A stretch of 64,000 nt of DNA, from the NCBI GenBank assembly GCA_963676395.1, contig OY781066.1:1504001-1568000 (forward strand), in the 5' to 3' direction. This stretch comes from a bacterium. GTDB taxonomy: Bacteria; Fidelibacterota; Fidelibacteria; Fidelibacterales; Fidelibacteraceae. Every line of letters begins with the position of its first letter. Position 1 is the first letter of the stretch. This document shows positions 33,001 to 42,000 of this stretch, piece after piece. The position numbers were made by a program.

Positions 33001-36000
33001 TCTCCTGTGCCGTACGTTTGGCTTCGGACTGGATACGTTTGAGTTCGCGTTGCTTTTCACCTGAAATACGGGATGCTTCACCTTGGCCTTCTGAACGATA
33101 TTTATCGGCAATTCGCTTACGCTCTGTGATCATACGTTCAAAGACGGTCTTTTGAACTTCTTTCACATAGTTGATGCGCTTGATCTTGAAATCCAGGATC
33201 TCAATGCCTAAGTCACCAACGCGACCGGCGGAGGCATGTAGGATTTCATCGGCGATCTTTTCACGACCATTCTTGATATCAACAAGAATACCTATATCCA
33301 TATCCATGGTGGGATCAGCCAGAGGCTTGCGATTTGAAGTTCTAACAACCTCGATCAGATCATGTTTTGCAAAGGTGGTGCGTGTTTCACCGTCAACGAT
33401 ATCATCAATACGGGACATGGCACCGCGTTCGTCACGTAGACGCTTGTAGAACAAAAGCGGATCGGTTATGCGCCATCTGGCATAGGTATCTACCCAGATA
33501 TAACGTTTATCTTTGGTTGTTACCTGGTTTGAGTCACCGCGCCATTCAAGGAAACGCTTGTCAAAAGTATGAACCGTTTCAAAGAAAGGCAGTTTAAGGT
33601 GTAAACCGGGGTTGGTGATAGTACGCACAGGTTTACCGAAACGCGTAACAATGGCCTGTTCTGGTTCATTCATAACGAATAAACCGCTTCCTACAACAAT
33701 GAGTAGCAAGAAGACCACAACAGCAAGAATAATTGATGTACTTCTTTTCATCTTGGCCTCCTTATTTGTTGTCCAGGTTTAGCAACGGTAAAACACCGGA
33801 GCTTTGTTCATCGATAACGAATTTTTTCTCCATCTTAGGTAGAACCTTGCTCATTGTTTCAAGATAGATACGCTGGCGAGTGATCTCTGGAGCTTTTTCG
33901 TATTCTTTTAGCACAGCAACAAAACGGGCAACGTCACCTTTGGCGCCGTTTACACGTTCGGATGCGTAACCTTCGGCATTTTGGATTGTCTGCTGAGCCT
34001 GACCTTTTGCTTTCGGGATAACCTTATTGTATTCCGAACGGGCCTGATTGATCAGCTTTTCTTTATCCTGCTGTGCCTGGTTTACTTCGTTGAACGATGC
34101 TTTCACCGCATCGGGTGGGTTCACATTCTGAAGAACGACTTGTTTAATACGAATACCGTTCTCGTACTGTTCACACAGTTCTTGTAAACCGGCTTCGACT
34201 TCTTGAGTGATCTCTTGTCGCCCAACCGTGAGTACTTCATTCAAAGTACGGTCACCAACCACTTTGCGCATGGTTGCTTCGCTCATATCACGTAATGTTG
34301 CTGTGGAATTACGTACTTTGAAAAGAAATTTGTATGGATCCTCAATACGAAATTGAATAATCCATTCAACTACGACCACATTAAGGTCGCCGGTGAGCAT
34401 CACCGATTCTGAGTTATAGTTTCTTGAGTACTGTGAAGTGACTCCGGCTTTTAATGTACGAAAACCGAATTCTTCTTTTAGCTGCCTTTCTACGGCAACC
34501 TGGTAGACCTTATCGATCACGGGGATTTTCAGGTGAAGTCCCGGTTCGGTGGTCTTGGTGTATTTGCCAAAGCGCAAAATAACACCAACATTTTCTGCCT
34601 GCACAACGTAAAAACCGCTCAAGATTCCAATCAAAACGATCAGAACGATCACGATATTGACAATGCGCTTAGCGTTGAGTGTCACACTGCGTCTGACATC
34701 ATCAGCATTTGCCATGATTTCCTCCGTTAATTTCCTGTTTGGCTGAATGTAAAAAATTATTTATCAATTTGATAATAATTTCGTAATTTTCCATGCAGTA
34801 AACAATCCTAATCTCTAAGGAGTTCCCGTGAATCCGCTTAAAACAGCTCTCGACTGTCAACGCTCCGTGTTTATCCAAGCCTGTGCAGGTGCAGGAAAGA
34901 CCTTTGCTCTTACCAAGCGATATGCCAATATTCTCGATTCTTTTTCTCAAGAATGCTTAAACGGCAAGAAAACCGGGTTATTGGGACCTAAAAATATTCT
35001 TGTGATCACATTTACCAAGAAAGCTGCGGGTGAAATGAAAGAGCGTATTCTTAGGGATGTGAATATACTGTTGTCCGGACATGAATTGAAAGACATGAAA
35101 GATCAGGGTTTTGATTTTTGTCCCAATCTCAGGAAAACGGACAATGAGGCTCTGGATAAATATAAAAAAGATCTGCAGGAGAATTTTTCGCAAAATGCCA
35201 TATCCACCATTGATTCCTTTTGCGCAGGTGTTCTGAGAGAGTTTGCCTATAAATTGGGGATTGATCCACAGTTTCTTTCTCAGGATGATCATGACACCAA
35301 AAAACTTTTAAATGAAAATCTGGAAATTTGGATCGCTCAAAAACTTAAAGATGCTCCCGATAGCTTTGATATCTTACTTGAGGATCTGGCTTTTTATCAA
35401 ATCAAGGATATCTTAAAAGGTATGATTGCTTCCAGGGAGATACTGGATGAGTATCTGGAAGATTTTGAAACAAAAAATGAAGATCAAATTTGGCAAGATT
35501 GGTTAAGACGATATACTTCTGATGTAGATACAATGACAATGGAGGTTAGGCTTCGAAGTTTATGGAATGAAGCTCAGGATAAATGTAAAGACAAGGGAGA
35601 TAATTTATATCAATTACTTGAGAAATTGGTAAATAGGACAGAACAACTAAAAGTTTATATAGACCCCAACGAGTATAAAAGCGCATTTATCAGTGAAGTG
35701 TTGAATAGAAAAGGTGATCTTTTAACCTTAAAGAATGGTAAGCTAGTATACAAAGTGAGTATGCCGGGAACTGCTAAAAACTGGAATGACAATTTTAAAA
35801 AAGATGCGCAAGAATGGTTTGATCATGTTAAAGACACGATCATTATTGATGATGTTTTAGGGACCCCAAGCCCTCAGGACAAAAAGATCATTCCGATTCT
35901 TAAAGATATTATTGCCAAATTCAGGGAGTTCGACGACTTTTTTAGAAACATTCGATTGGATCGTGATCTGCTTGATTTTTCGGATGTGATCATTTTAACT

Positions 36001-39000: not shown

Positions 39001-42000
39001 CCACTAATGAAACCGGGATTATCTTTATGGTTGTATGACCAAAAAACCAGAAGAGAACCTTTGAACGAGCCGGCATTGCCTTATGAAGCTGTAGAATTAT
39101 GCGAAAAGGGCAAAGCTAAGGATTTTGATGAGCTGATCGAAAAAGTTGGAAAATTTATAAAAGAGATCAAAGACTCAAATGATCCGGACCAGAGTAAAGC
39201 CTGTGATAAATTTATGGAGCTATTGGAAACGGTACTTGCTGATGTACGCAGAGTCAATTCAAAAGCCGGCATAAATGATTTAATACACGAAATGAATCTA
39301 CGGATCAAAAAGATAGGTTTACCCCGTCGCGATCAATGGAACGGGATTCCGGTCGTGGGCTTGTTGGACAGTTTAGGCACTCGCGTAGATAAACTTTATA
39401 TTCTCGGCATGGTAGAGGGAGATATTCCTCGACAGGAAGGCGAGAATCCATTTTTTATACAGAACAAAAATTACACCCTGGAACTGAATCGGTATTTCAT
39501 GAAAGAATGGAAGAAACTGGGCGATTCGGTGATCTTTTGCACCTCTACGCACGCCGAAGACGGCAGCGAGCAGGCGCGTTCCTCTTTTCTTGAAGGAATG
39601 AATTTACAAACGATCACCTTGGCACCCATGGGGCGCAGAACACAACTTCTTGCCTATGCGAGAAAGCACATCGCCGGACAGCAAGCTGAGATGATCGCTC
39701 GGCACCATGAAATACTGGAAAAACGAAAAGCGGAATTTTCGGGTGATATTGCGAAAATTGAGCATGCATTTGATATCAGCGTTACCCAAGTAGATACTTT
39801 GCTGAAATGCCCGATGAGATTTTATTTTGAGACCGTATTGAAATGCAAAGAATTAGATCAGGATGAGAAATTATATTGGGGCAGTAAAAAGGGTAATGTC
39901 ATCCATAACAGTTATGAAGCTTTTATAAAAGCGAAAGGTTATGAGTTAGATGAAGATGCCGCACTTGAGTTAATGCGCAAGTGTTTGGATGATGCTTTAG
40001 ATAAAGAAGGCATTGATAAAGATGATCCACAGCAGATGGACCGCTTTCGATATTATATCAAGGATCTGCATACCGGATCGGATAATAATTGTCTGGCAAA
40101 AAATCTCAAAACCATCAGAGAAAAATATTCAACATACACTCAATTTGAATATGAAAAGGATTTTAAAAATATCAAACTTGAGCATCCCGATCTAGATATC
40201 GCTTTGCGTGGTCGTATTGATAAGATCATGTTGAGCAACGAAGATAAACAATTAATAGCGTCTGATTTTAAAACGGGTACCATAAAGCCGGCGCTGTTAT
40301 CTAAATGGATGTTATCACAGCTCTATCTTTATCTGAAATATTGCGCTCAGGAATACCCCGACTATGAATTGAAAGCCATGTATGAGTTACTTAAAGCACC
40401 CAAGGATACAAAAATGTTGGAATACACCTTAAGTGAGACAGAGTTCAGACAGGGAAGGCAAAGTTTTATCATCCAAGAATTCGAGGAACATCTGTCCGCT
40501 TTATTTTCTCAGATAGGCGCAGGAAAATATTATATTACAGAGAAACCTTTTAAGGATGCCTGTGAGTATTGTGGATATGAAGGGCTTTGCAGGAAGAATA
40601 CTAGATTGAAAGTCTAAAAATACTGTTAATCAAAAGTATCGAATGGTTGTGCTCACACATTGCAAGAATTAACCAAATGATTAAGATATAACCTTGGAGA
40701 TATACATGAACGAATTTTTATTAAACGAACTCAAACGAGCTAGAGAAGAAGGCAAGCTAAAGGAAGTCACGATTGATAATATCAAAAAATGGGTACGCCG
40801 TACCCGTTTAAAACAATTGGTATTTATCTTTTTCGAATCTGTTATTCTTTTGGGATTTGGTATCGGTAATTTAACGAATAATCCTGTGAAATCATTTTCT
40901 TTCGCATTGGGTGTTCTTTGTCTGGTGATCTGGCCTTTTCTTGCCATCAATATTCATAGGTATTTGAGGAGGTTGGAATACAAAGAAGAGGATTTAGAAG
41001 AAATAGTAAGACGGTTAACAGAGGAGAGTTAACAGTTTACAACGAAAATCTAATATTGTGGGGACGCAGATGAGAAAAAGCCTCATCTTTTTTTACAAAG
41101 AATTATCAAATGCTCATCTTTCTTGAAAAAGAGTACAAGGAATATGAAATAGCAAAACAATTATTGAAGTCCGGTACCGGTATTGGAGCAAATGTCACGG
41201 AAGGTGAGTATGCCCAAAGCCCAAAAAACTCTCTCTCTAAAATGAATATTGCTTTAAAAGAGGCAGCAGAAACGGAATTTTGGATCAAACAGTTAAGAGA
41301 TTCTAATTGGTATGGCGACCATTGGGAATCACTATTGAAGGACTGCATTGAGATAAGAAAAATTCTTATCTCAATTGTTAAAACCACCAGAAATAATCTA
41401 TAATACTTGACTTAAAGTATTATCTCATGAAACTTGTACGTTGTTAACTATACGTTGAGCCTATTTCATCAGGATCAGCTTTTGTACCTTACTTTCACCT
41501 CCAACGCTTAAATTGGCAAAATAGATTCCCGAAGGATAATTTGCGGCATTCCAGTTAATGGCATAGGAACCTGCCGAATAATGGTCATTGGCCAAAGTTG
41601 TAATTTGTTGGCCGTTTATATTAAAGATATTTAATTTAACTTCGGCATCATAAGGTATGGTGAATTCCAAAGTCGTACTGGGGTTGAAAGGATTGGGATA
41701 TGCAGATCTCAAATGAAAATCAGTCGGAAAATCACCAAAGATATCTTCAACAGAAACTTCGTTTGCGGATTCAAAGAAATCAATAATCCTTGCCATAAAG
41801 TCGATTCGTTTATCTTCACCTTGGATTGTTTCGAAAGGAAAGCCAAGACAGATAACTTTACCTGTATCCGAAGACGTGCCAAAAGGACCGACATAGCCGA
41901 TTCCTGCATAAACGCCACTTGAATACTGTACAATAAATTTACCGCCACCGTTTGCCCGGATTTTGTCGGGATAATCTTCAGGATACAAAGCAGAGCTACC

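What a model noticed while it worked through the whole genome (the two positions that open the first line are those of the whole stretch)
34828..40617. Single-chain AddAB: helicase-nuclease AddA fused to an AddB-type iron-sulfur nuclease in one 1,929-aa protein
g01304 encodes in one open frame a complete AddA (UvrD-type helicase plus RecB-type nuclease, residues 10-1109) followed by an 820-residue AddB-like half that ends in a PD-(D/E)XK nuclease with the four-cysteine iron-staple motif; no separate addB, recB/C/D or adnA/B gene was seen. Boldest reading: Fidelibacterota process double-strand breaks with a single-polypeptide, dual-nuclease AddAB, the smallest-subunit-count version of the RecBCD/AddAB/AdnAB machines. 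New would be a natural covalent AddA-AddB fusion with a shortened AddB, handy for single-molecule and structural work because stoichiometry is fixed.
Evidence so far: Pfam: UvrD-helicase 10-466 (5e-53), UvrD_C 478-846, PDDEXK_1 955-1095 (+Cas_Cas4), second PDDEXK_1 1650-1922 (8e-25); best Swiss-Prot hit AddA over residues 14-1103 only. The C-terminal 829 residues alone match only PDDEXK_1 (2e-24). Cysteines at 1661 and 1912/1915/1921 (C-x250-C-x2-C-x5-C) as in AddB/Cas4 iron-sulfur nucleases. With the C-terminal half as query, 11 of 30 other genomes of the phylum (>=92% complete) match at E<=1e-15, and in 10 of these 11 the match lies in an uninterrupted frame of 1,947-2,088 codons (the 11th is cut by a contig end), in three families of the phylum. 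Paper search AddAB + single polypeptide + fused: 1 paper, unrelated. A grep of the Pfam, NCBIfam and Swiss-P [...]
(Added by a program. Inside this text positions count along the whole contig: contig position 1,504,001 is position 1 of the stretch shown here. "Call 12" and the like, gene names such as g00115 and contig names such as C1 are that model's own, and its searches are not shown. The text may have been shortened before it was handed on; [...] marks where a part breaks off. The agent that wrote the report below was given it as the finding of a first reader that could run no searches.)

Follow-up and report, generated by a model that had tools for sequence, protein, structure and literature searches.

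The report
Natural single-chain AddA-AddB repair enzyme
One 1,929-residue gene joins both subunits of the bacterial DNA-break-trimming enzyme AddAB into a single protein; the fusion is real and conserved in two related phyla, but it is a rearranged form of a well-known machine, not a new kind of machine.

Summary
Window 34828-40617 (+) is one uninterrupted 1,929-codon frame.

- **N-terminal part (residues 1-1095):** a complete AddA, with a UvrD-type SF1A motor and a RecB-type nuclease.
- **C-terminal part (residues ~1130-1929):** a complete AddB homologue, not only a nuclease.
  - A profile built from 38 fused proteins alone matches B. subtilis AddB residues 164-1132 at E 1e-32.
  - An AlphaFold model (mean pLDDT 88.7) aligns with AddB residues 16-1138 at Z 21.6.
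- **Conserved sites:** both nuclease active sites and the AddA ATPase motifs are invariant or nearly so. The four iron-sulfur cysteines are kept in 34 of 38 proteins. The AddB-like half has no Walker A motif, so the enzyme has one motor.
- **Rest of the genome:** it holds no other PD-(D/E)XK_1, RecC or RecD gene.
- **Distribution:** the fusion is found in 68 of 300 other genomes of the phylum (named relatives: Marinimicrobia/Fidelibacterota) and in 17 of 200 other Cloacimonadota. Other families of the phylum keep separate addA and addB.
- **Gene order:** the nearest split relatives are addB-addA operons, so this A-to-B fusion is permuted.
- **Not unique:** B-to-A fusions occur in other lineages, and this scan noted two of them before on other DNA.
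- **Literature:** I found no paper describing such fusions.

Verdict: a new variant of a known kind, of moderate interest.

The parts
34828..40617 (+). Whole gene, 1,929 codons plus stop, GTG start: single-chain AddA-AddB
   Evidence: conserved full-length frames
34855..37365 (+). AddA-type SF1A (UvrD-like) helicase core, residues 10-846
   Evidence: Pfam UvrD-helicase 6.8e-52 and UvrD_C 3.1e-34. The family profile matches B. subtilis AddA 3u44_A at E 2.2e-91.
34879..34902 (+). Walker A (helicase motif I), residues 18-25 (A-x-A-G-x-G-K-T)
   Evidence: A20, G21, G23, K24 and T25 are kept in 37 of 38 family members; the 38th has a gap there.
36070..36084 (+). Helicase motif II, DEFQD, residues 415-419
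   Evidence: invariant in 38 of 38
37690..38112 (+). AddA RecB-type PD-(D/E)XK nuclease domain, residues 955-1095; catalytic D1043, D1056, K1058; Q1072, Y1076
   Evidence: PDDEXK_1 1.1e-12; Cas_Cas4 and cas4 core matches; the named residues are invariant in 38 of 38.
38113..38250 (+). Junction, residues 1096-1141. A semi-conserved D-x-x-Y-F patch is followed by a variable tether before the first strand of the AddB-like 1A domain.
   Evidence: The segment 1090-1146 is 53-84 residues long across the 38 proteins. The model shows no regular secondary structure before residue 42 of the half, with pLDDT 67-85.
38251..39774 (+). AddB/RecC-type inactive helicase-like scaffold, residues 1142-1649; no Walker A
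   Evidence: The profile of fused proteins matches AddB 3u44_B 164-1132 at E 1e-32 and RecC at 2.3e-6. The model aligns with AddB 16-1138 at Z 21.6. Residues 1148-1155 are variable. TIGR03623 covers 1458-1923.
39775..40593 (+). AddB-type PD-(D/E)XK nuclease domain, residues 1650-1922; H1693, D1798, D1813, K1815, Q1831, Y1835
   Evidence: PDDEXK_1 8.7e-26; the named residues are invariant in 38 of 38.
39808..39810 (+). Cys1661, first ligand of the predicted iron-sulfur cluster
   Evidence: Cys in 34 of 38
40561..40590 (+). Cys1912-x2-Cys1915-x5-Cys1921, the other three predicted cluster ligands
   Evidence: Each is Cys in 34 of 38. The same four proteins lack all four cysteines.

Best explanation
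The gene encodes a single-polypeptide AddAB-type helicase-nuclease. It is probably this organism's only RecBCD/AddAB-class enzyme for processing double-strand DNA ends.

How it most likely works, by homology with B. subtilis AddAB:
- The N-terminal AddA part is the sole ATP-driven 3'-to-5' motor, and its nuclease cuts the 3'-ended strand.
- The C-terminal AddB part is an inactive helicase-like scaffold that helps bind the DNA end, with its iron-sulfur domain. In AddAB this scaffold scans the 3' strand for a Chi-like sequence.
- The AddB nuclease cuts the 5'-ended strand.
- The product would be a 3' single-stranded tail for RecA.
- The two halves are tethered by about 45 residues, so their stoichiometry is fixed at 1:1.

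What is shown here: the architecture, the homology of both halves over their full lengths, the conservation of all catalytic residues, and the absence of a second motor site.

What is inferred: the activities, strand assignment, Chi recognition, cluster binding, and that the two halves pair within one chain.
For: **One intact frame.**

**AddA half.**
- addA_alphas matches residues 6-1085 against profile positions 5-1119 of 1138, at 5.7e-77.
- The profile of 38 fused proteins matches 3u44_A at 2.2e-91.

**AddB half.**
- The same profile, which holds no stand-alone AddB, matches 3u44_B in one stretch, AddB residues 164-1132 of 1166, at E 1e-32.
- The AF2 model has mean pLDDT 88.7 and pTM 0.70.
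- In Foldseek the top five matches are all AddB chain B (4ceh_B: E 9.1e-26, TMq 0.67), ahead of RecC (TMq 0.50) and AdnA.
- VIA-align gives Z 21.6, rmsd 5.3 A and 764 of 829 residues aligned, model 30-829 against AddB 16-1138.

**Conserved residues.**
- Invariant in 38 of 38: DEFQD; D1043, D1056, K1058, Q1072, Y1076; H1693, D1798, D1813, K1815, Q1831, Y1835.
- Walker A is kept in 37 of 38.
- Each of the four cysteines is kept in 34 of 38.

**Housekeeping pattern.**
- 31 of 32 genomes of the window's own family and 25 of 26 of family f5 have the gene.
- No neighbouring gene is conserved: at most 4 of 15 loci share one.
- The window's neighbours are unrelated housekeeping genes.

**No competing system in the genome.** PDDEXK_1 and TIGR03623 match only in this frame, there is no RecC, and RecD does not reach its cut-off.
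Against: - No biochemical or expression data exist for any member.
- Scores against the curated AddA and AddB equivalog models are far below their cut-offs: 260 against 861 bits, and 45-49 against 487 bits. The family is therefore a distant branch.
- A single-sequence search of the C-terminal half against PDB sequences found nothing; only profiles and the fold show the relation.
- Whether a 45-residue tether lets the halves pair within one chain as in the crystal structure was not measured.
- No Chi candidate emerged.
- The AddB ATP site, which stabilises the Chi complex in B. subtilis (PMC3064778, passages read), is absent.
- RecJ is present, so this is not the only possible route to end resection.
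Confidence: 0.85

Rival explanations
1. The chain does not fold back on itself. Two chains pair head to tail, the AddA part of one with the AddB part of the other. The working enzyme would then be a dimer with two motors and four nucleases.
For: - The domain order (A then B) is the reverse of the addB-addA order in the nearest split relatives. The fusion was therefore not a simple read-through, and its tether geometry is untested.
- The tether varies in length: the segment 1090-1146 spans 53-84 residues.
Against: - Both A-to-B and B-to-A fusions exist in nature, which suggests that either tether is tolerated by the ordinary 1:1 assembly.
- AddAB works as a single heterodimer (PMC3064778, passages read).
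- As I recall the AddAB structure (not measured here), the AddA nuclease sits next to the AddB scaffold.
Confidence: 0.08
2. It is not a recombinational-repair enzyme but a degradative or anti-phage helicase-nuclease.
For: - PADLOC models of Gabija GajB and a DRT-associated helicase match the UvrD core, at best 4.9e-40 and 136 bits.
- There is no AddB ATP site and no detectable Chi candidate.
Against: - The PADLOC matches cover only the generic helicase core (residues ~286-788) and are weaker than the AddA matches.
- No GajA-like or other conserved partner lies nearby.
- The gene is near-universal within two families, 31 of 32 and 25 of 26 genomes. That is the pattern of a core gene, not of a patchy defence island.
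Confidence: 0.05
3. The long frame is an artefact (mis-assembly, or a sequencing error that removed a stop), or the protein is cut after translation into ordinary AddA and AddB subunits.
For: Two few-contig assemblies of the same genus (G122, G126) show the gene broken by TGA stops. Processing cannot be seen from sequence.
Against: - Uninterrupted frames of at least 1,900 codons occur in 45 other genomes of the phylum and in 12 other Cloacimonadota.
- Such frames also occur in 29 independent cluster representatives at down to 23% identity.
- The junction carries a semi-conserved motif, with no stop or start signal.
- There is no excess of promoter-like sites, and none on the + strand near the junction.
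Confidence: 0.02

Closest known systems
Bacillus subtilis AddAB heterodimer (PDB 3U44, 3U4Q, 4CEH, 4CEI, 4CEJ)
   Same: - Same two modules with the same domains.
- AddA: SF1A motor plus RecB-type nuclease (profile E 2.2e-91).
- AddB: inactive helicase-like scaffold plus a PD-(D/E)XK nuclease with a four-cysteine cluster motif (E 1e-32; Z 21.6 over AddB 16-1138).
- One motor and two nucleases.
   Different: - One polypeptide in place of two subunits.
- The AddB part has 829 residues, against 1,166 for the B. subtilis AddB chain (length as listed), through shorter insertions.
- No Walker A site in the AddB part.
- Sequence identity is only 12-14% in the structural alignment.
Split addB-addA operons of the sister clade (metagenome loci L074-L076) and split addA/addB of other families of the same phylum (G004, G010)
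   Same: - Nearest stand-alone AddB relatives in the tree of AddB modules.
- Their AddA is 29% identical to the N-terminal half, E 4e-92.
- Similar AddB size, 953 aa.
   Different: - Two genes in the order addB then addA. In L076 they overlap by 11 nt.
- The window's protein has the reverse order, A then B, in one frame.
- In G004 and G010 the two genes are separated by one to four genes on the other strand.
B-to-A single-chain AddB-AddA proteins (P0146, P0201, P0203-P0208, P0255, P0284, P0295, P0301), including the two noted earlier by this scan (e1-2145702, e1-1412107)
   Same: Covalent fusions of the same two modules, 1,849-2,552 aa long. They are annotated only as 'UvrD-helicase domain-containing protein' or 'helicase/nuclease subunit A'.
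   Different: - Opposite domain order.
- They fall in two clades separate from the window's family in the AddB-module tree, so they arose independently.
- 5 of the 12 show no second nuclease match at the C-terminus.
RecBCD (E. coli) and AdnAB (mycobacteria)
   Same: The same class of end-resection machine. RecC and AdnA are the next best structural matches of the C-terminal half: Z 17.8 and 16.9, TMq 0.50 and 0.49.
   Different: - No RecC or RecD gene in the genome.
- No second motor site such as AdnA has: residues 1148-1155 of the C-terminal half show no Walker A motif, and among the invariant columns the DEFQD motif II occurs only in the N-terminal half.
- RecC has no nuclease.
UvrD-Cas4-like helicase-nuclease fusions (Hudaiberdiev et al. 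2017, PMC5704561, passages read)
   Same: An SF1 helicase fused to a Cas4/AddB-like PD-(D/E)XK nuclease in one chain.
   Different: As the passages read describe them, those proteins are a UvrD-like helicase fused to a Cas4-like nuclease domain. Here a full AddA, with its own nuclease, is followed by a full AddB.

Membership tests
AddAB helicase-nuclease | AddA: complete SF1A UvrD-like helicase with intact ATPase motifs | tested here: met
   Pfam 6.8e-52 and 3.1e-34. Walker A is kept in 37 of 38 and DEFQD in 38 of 38. 3u44_A matches at 2.2e-91.
AddAB helicase-nuclease | AddA: C-terminal RecB-type PD-(D/E)XK nuclease with catalytic D...D-x-K | tested here: met
   PDDEXK_1 at residues 955-1095. 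D1043, D1056 and K1058 are invariant.
AddAB helicase-nuclease | AddB: helicase-like but motor-dead scaffold, homologous to AddB/RecC over its length | tested here: met
   Profile match to AddB 164-1132 at E 1e-32. Z 21.6 over AddB 16-1138. No Walker A.
AddAB helicase-nuclease | AddB: C-terminal PD-(D/E)XK nuclease with catalytic residues | tested here: met
   PDDEXK_1 8.7e-26. H1693, D1798, D1813, K1815, Q1831 and Y1835 are kept in 38 of 38.
AddAB helicase-nuclease | AddB: four-cysteine iron-sulfur 'staple' around the nuclease (C...C-x2-C-x5-C) | tested here: met
   The motif is present at 1661, 1912, 1915 and 1921, each kept in 34 of 38. Actual cluster binding cannot be tested with these tools.
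AddAB helicase-nuclease | Two separate subunits forming a heterodimer | tested here: not met
   One frame without a stop, conserved as one frame. This is the point of difference.
AddAB helicase-nuclease | Score above the curated NCBIfam equivalog cut-offs (addA_alphas, addA_Gpos, addB_alphas, addB_Gpos) | tested here: not met
   260.1 against 860.75 bits, 258.9 against 707.65, and 45-49 against 486.5. addB_Gpos is not listed. This is a distant branch of the superfamily.
AddAB helicase-nuclease | Walker A motif at the AddB N-terminus (present in only a subset of AddBs, PMC3064778) | tested here: not met
   Residues 1148-1155 are variable and lack G-K-[ST]. The feature is not required for membership.
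AddAB helicase-nuclease | ATP-dependent end-specific unwinding and degradation, regulated by Chi | not testable with these tools
   A k-mer skew scan gave no Chi candidate. No biochemistry is available.
RecBCD | RecC and RecD subunits | tested here: not met
   PF04257 finds no match. TIGR01447 gives only weak matches (27 bits against a 310-bit cut-off) inside an unrelated 1,600-aa helicase.
AdnAB | Two motor-nuclease subunits, each with ATPase motifs | tested here: not met
   The C-terminal half has no Walker A at 1148-1155. Among the invariant columns, the DEFQD motif II occurs only in the N-terminal half. AdnA is a weaker structural match than AddB.
Gabija (GajB) or other defence helicases | Patchy distribution, with a GajA or other defence partner next to it | tested here: not met
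   Only generic UvrD-core matches. No conserved neighbour. Present in 31 of 32 and 25 of 26 genomes of two families.

The most novel reading that the evidence does not exclude
Because the two modules are joined in the reverse of the operon order, the chain may be unable to pair its own halves. It might instead work as a head-to-tail homodimer. That would be an AddAB-derived machine with two motors and four nucleases, functionally convergent on the dual-motor RecBCD and AdnAB enzymes. A related point: a sub-clade of this family lost all four cluster cysteines together. If those proteins are active, the iron-sulfur staple is dispensable for AddB-type end binding.
Probability: 0.1. Interest if true: 0.7.

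Novelty: new variant of a known kind. Interest (0 to 1): 0.45.

Why it matters
- **Experimental use.** AddAB is a textbook two-subunit machine. A natural, conserved single-chain version with every catalytic site intact fixes the stoichiometry. That could simplify expression, single-molecule and cryo-EM work.
- **Evolution of the complex.** AddA/AddB fusions seem to have arisen at least four times: two B-to-A clades, one gammaproteobacterial A-to-B protein, and this A-to-B family of the FCB group. This family is permuted relative to its nearest addB-addA operons, so it is a case of gene-order rearrangement before fusion.
- **Annotation.** These proteins are currently named only 'UvrD-helicase domain-containing protein'. 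Genome surveys that count addA and addB separately would wrongly score these lineages as lacking AddB.
- **Limit.** It does not change how AddAB is thought to work.

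Tried and rejected
- **Single-sequence PDB search.** phmmer of the C-terminal half against PDB sequences gave 0 matches at E up to 10. Profile searches and the fold were needed.
- **A2 profile.** Its match to AddB (3.4e-61) is partly circular, because A2 contains stand-alone AddB-like proteins. I rely on the A1 profile, which holds fused proteins only.
- **Chi search.** I scanned 5- to 8-mers for strand skew relative to the GC-skew origin (~1.198 Mb) and for over-representation. Only general G/T-rich skew appeared and no candidate stood out.
- **Promoter and terminator scan over 34500-41200.** It found 20 and 6 sites against 18.4 and 5.3 expected, so it is uninformative. 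There is no sign of an internal start at the junction.
- **Conserved partner gene.** None was found in 15 loci.
- **Defence reading.** Only generic helicase matches.
- **The search for related loci.**
  - P0211 returned only its own contig.
  - P0083 found nothing in metagenome contigs.
  - Alignment A4 then worked.
- **Tree.** The maximum-likelihood tree did not finish in 300 s. The tree cited is FastTree with SH-like support, many long branches and compositional heterogeneity, so its branching order is provisional.
- **Papers.**
  - Full-text searches found no paper describing an AddA-AddB fusion.
  - Searches were judged from titles and abstract beginnings only.
  - One search returned one paper, on Dna2.
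  - Cromie 2009 (J Bacteriol 191:5076) is the most likely place for an earlier mention. It is not held and was not read.
- **Unresolved row.** P0054 (874 aa, on a 5.4-kb contig) nests inside the fused clade as an apparently stand-alone AddB. I could not tell whether it is a fragment.

Full report
**1. The observation**

Window 34828-40617 (+) is a single open frame of 1,929 codons that starts at GTG. G+C content is even across it, 0.36-0.44.

Pfam finds UvrD-helicase at 10-466 (6.8e-52), UvrD_C at 478-846 (3.1e-34), a Cas4-like core at 1033-1109 and PDDEXK_1 twice. In genome coordinates the two nuclease matches translate to residues 955-1095 (1.1e-12) and 1650-1922 (8.7e-26), and both lie in one 1,932-codon open frame. 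Cysteines stand at 1661, 1912, 1915 and 1921.

**2. The N-terminal half is a complete AddA**

- NCBIfam addA_alphas covers residues 6-1085 against profile positions 5-1119 of 1138 (5.7e-77). addA_Gpos (9.7e-77) and recB (2.3e-73) follow. All are far below the curated equivalog cut-offs.
- I aligned 38 full-length fused proteins (A1). A profile of that alignment matches B. subtilis AddA (3u44_A) at 2.2e-91.
- In A1 the Walker A residues are kept in 37 of 38 proteins.
- DEFQD and the nuclease residues D1043, D1056, K1058, Q1072 and Y1076 are kept in 38 of 38.

**3. The C-terminal half is a complete AddB homologue**

The evidence is as follows.

- The half alone finds nothing in PDB sequences by phmmer.
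- It does match TIGR03623, an AddB-related family, over residues 358-823 of the half against profile positions 413-876 of 876 (2.7e-12). It also matches addB_alphas at 2.1e-13.
- The A1 profile contains fused proteins only. It matches B. subtilis AddB (3u44_B) in one stretch covering AddB 164-1132 of 1166 at E 1e-32, and RecC at 2.3e-6.
- I predicted the structure of the half from a 52-row alignment (A2). The model has mean pLDDT 88.7 and pTM 0.70.
- In Foldseek its five best matches are all AddB chain B (4ceh_B: E 9.1e-26, TMq 0.67). RecC (TMq 0.50) and AdnA (0.49) follow.
- VIA-align gives Z 21.6, rmsd 5.3 A and 764 of 829 residues aligned, model 30-829 against AddB 16-1138. The next different protein families are UvrD/PcrA helicases (Z about 18, helicase part only), RecC (17.8) and AdnA (16.9).

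So all AddB domains are present. The half is short only through trimmed insertions. Its 829 residues lie within the range of the 30 stand-alone AddB-like proteins I examined, 801-1,046 aa.

- The nuclease residues H1693, D1798, D1813, K1815, Q1831 and Y1835 are invariant.
- Each cluster cysteine is kept in 34 of 38 proteins.
- The position where B. subtilis AddB has its Walker A, after the first strand (residues 1148-1155), is variable and lacks G-K-[ST].
- According to PMC3064778 (passages read), only a subset of AddBs has that motif. It does not contribute to unwinding, and its loss weakens the Chi complex about threefold.
- The protein therefore has one motor and two nucleases.

**4. The junction**

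After the last strand of the AddA nuclease comes a semi-conserved D-x-x-Y-F patch. A variable stretch then leads to the first strand of the AddB-like 1A domain. The segment corresponding to residues 1090-1146 is 53-84 residues long across the 38 proteins. The model shows no regular secondary structure in the first ~40 residues of the half. There is no excess of promoter-like sites, and none on the + strand near the junction.

**5. It is a real, conserved gene**

- Word-indexed search: 28 proteins at E up to 1e-3. Of these, 23 are 1,915-2,054 aa long, and the 5 shorter ones lie on contigs of 5.5-7.9 kb. Named ones are Marinimicrobia or Fidelibacterota MAG proteins called 'UvrD-helicase domain-containing protein'.
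- Exhaustive search of 1.84 billion representatives with the half: 274 hits at E up to 1e-3. Among the 150 listed, 29 are 1,929-2,127 aa long with the match at their C-terminal end.
- Phylum scan: 69 of 301 genomes match at E up to 1e-5, that is 68 of 300 without the window's own genome.

| Family code | Genomes with a match |
|---|---|
| f1 (the window's own) | 31 of 32 |
| f5 | 25 of 26 |
| f2 | 2 of 2 |
| f13 | 2 of 2 |
| f4 | 1 of 1 |
| f12 | 2 of 4 |
| f15 | 3 of 8 |
| f19 | 1 of 42 |
| f9 | 1 of 30 |
| f7 | 0 of 15 |
| f11 | 0 of 30 |
| f16 | 0 of 25 |

- Every other family code tallied also gave no match.
- The single f9 match is a weak one to a 1,061-codon frame.
- By my count from the table, 45 of the 68 have an uninterrupted frame of at least 1,900 codons.
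- The other 23 have shorter frames. Many of these touch contig ends, but I did not check each. Two few-contig assemblies (G122, G126) show the gene broken by TGA.

**6. Other genomes of the phylum keep split genes**

In five near-complete genomes without the fusion, PDDEXK_1 finds frames of about 1,000-1,140 codons. In G004 and G010 these are a separate AddA (1,091 and 1,134 aa; addA_Gpos 1.6e-105 and 6.6e-119) and a separate AddB (1,042 and 1,054 aa; addB_Gpos 1.5e-30 and 9.7e-34). Both lie on the same strand, with one to four genes of the other strand between them.

**7. The family reaches a second phylum**

P0091 (2,127 aa), P0211 (2,050 aa) and the P0085 cluster are named Cloacimonadota and have the A-to-B order. 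A scan of 201 Cloacimonadota genomes with the C-terminal half of P0211 found 18 with a match, counting the query's own genome. Of these, 13 have frames of 1,957-2,230 codons. Both phyla belong to the FCB group.

**8. Other, independent fusions**

- Twelve proteins carry the AddB module first and AddA second: P0146, P0201, P0203-P0208, P0255, P0284, P0295 and P0301, of 1,849-2,552 aa. I checked the order by Pfam for P0146 and 10 others, and by module position for P0204. One search shows a further, 1,670-aa protein (P0148) with the same order.
- Seven of these 12 show a second, weak nuclease match at the extreme C-terminus.
- One gammaproteobacterial MAG protein (P0209, 2,184 aa) is A-to-B and has an ADDB_N match.
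- I built a FastTree of 76 AddB modules.
  - The 30 Fidelibacterota-type and 3 Cloacimonadota A-to-B modules form one clade (SH-like support 96), together with one apparently stand-alone row, P0054, which may be a fragment.
  - The B-to-A modules fall in two other clades (9 and 3 rows).
  - P0209 sits elsewhere, among split AddBs.
- This suggests at least four fusion events. The tree has many long branches and heterogeneous composition, so I treat the count as provisional.
- This scan had already noted two B-to-A fusions on other DNA. The 2,264-aa form corresponds in length to members of the P0301 cluster. I did not check the taxa named in those notes.

**9. The order is permuted relative to the nearest operons**

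The sister clade of the fused family in the tree consists of stand-alone AddBs: P0070, P0075, P0081, P0083, P0094 and P0082. Of five metagenome loci at 38-100% identity to that clade (L073-L077), I looked at the three with enough downstream flank.

- All three show a 953-aa addB followed directly by an ORF of 1,177-1,243 aa on the same strand.
- In L076 the two overlap by 11 nt.
- I tested only the L076 downstream ORF. It is an AddA (addA_Gpos 1.4e-109) and is 29% identical to the window's N-terminal half (E 4e-92).

Loss of a stop codon in such an operon would give B-to-A, not A-to-B. I therefore infer a rearrangement before fusion, for example a tandem duplication followed by loss of the outer copies. 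This step is inference.

**10. Context and rivals**

- The genome has no other PDDEXK_1 gene, no RecC, no RecD above cut-off and no other TIGR03623-like gene. RecJ is present.
- Neighbours in the window are unrelated: two Band_7 genes upstream on the other strand; downstream a 112-codon ORF with no Pfam match, then a 23S-rRNA-IVP gene and a beta-lactamase-fold protein with a T9SS tail.
- No neighbour is conserved across 15 loci.
- PADLOC gives only generic UvrD-core matches.
- A defence role, an artefact and proteolytic processing are therefore all unlikely.
- A head-to-tail dimer cannot be excluded, because I could not measure the tether geometry.

**11. Literature**

- Full-text searches found no description of a fused AddAB: AddAB with fusion or single polypeptide, AddAB+RecBCD+AdnAB+fused, six exact phrases for a fused AddAB (0 papers), Marinimicrobia+AddAB (0 papers) and AddA+AddB+fused+polypeptide (1 paper, on Dna2).
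- I judged from titles and abstract beginnings only.
- Hudaiberdiev et al. 2017 (passages read) describe UvrD-Cas4 fusions, not AddA-AddB.
- Cromie 2009 is not held, so an earlier mention there cannot be excluded.

**12. Verdict**

This is a real, conserved, single-chain AddAB with one motor and two nucleases, and a new variant of a known machine. Three features are new about this family:
- the A-to-B order, which is permuted relative to its nearest operons;
- its spread over parts of two FCB phyla;
- a sub-clade that lost the whole cysteine cluster.

The mechanism is inferred by homology. Interest is moderate.

Noticed in passing
own genome G000:C1:1684990-1689792 (-), outside the window (locus L064:491-5290:-): A 1,600-aa protein combines a DEAD/Helicase_C (SF2) helicase at residues 264-582 with a UvrD-like SF1 helicase at 1050-1473. 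Its first ~250 residues begin with an exonuclease-like motif, judged by eye only. Two helicases of different superfamilies in one chain is unusual.
   Followed up: partly
family members P0063, P0068, P0071, P0077 (alignment A1): Four of the 38 fused proteins have lost all four iron-sulfur cysteines together while keeping the nuclease catalytic residues. They form one clade with support 100. This looks like a natural AddB-type nuclease without the iron staple.
   Followed up: partly
G122:C2:90214-92768 and G126:C1:493770-496320: In two few-contig assemblies of the window's genus, the fused gene is broken into two or three frames by TGA stops. These could be pseudogenes or assembly indel errors; I could not tell which.
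   Followed up: no
G080:C50:50897-52108 and G080:C76:37061-38272: One genome (contamination 3%) carries two full-length copies of the fused gene, both in 2,071-codon frames. This may be a duplication or two strains binned together.
   Followed up: no
L076:4983-7844 and 7834-11367 (+); also L074 and L075: The nearest split relatives are addB-addA operons; in L076, where the downstream ORF was tested, the two reading frames overlap by 11 nt. That order is the reverse of the window's fusion.
   Followed up: yes
window 44885-46630 (+): A 581-aa protein joins an IF-2B-family domain (residues 74-372, 6.3e-75) to a class II aldolase domain (430-575, 5.8e-12). From memory, these are the families of methylthioribose-1-phosphate isomerase and the following dehydratase of methionine salvage, so this may be a fusion of two consecutive enzymes.
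   Followed up: no
window 41461-43803 (-): A 780-aa protein has a beta-lactamase-fold domain (2e-44) and a C-terminal T9SS sorting domain (2.4e-10). It is a secreted serine hydrolase candidate.
   Followed up: no
window 41110-41403 (+): A 97-aa '23S rRNA-intervening sequence protein' family member (2.2e-16) lies free-standing between genes, not inside an rRNA gene.
   Followed up: no
own genome, whole contig: The cumulative GC skew has its minimum near 1.198 Mb and its maximum near 0.03 Mb. The likely origin therefore lies near the middle of the deposited contig, not at its start.
   Followed up: no
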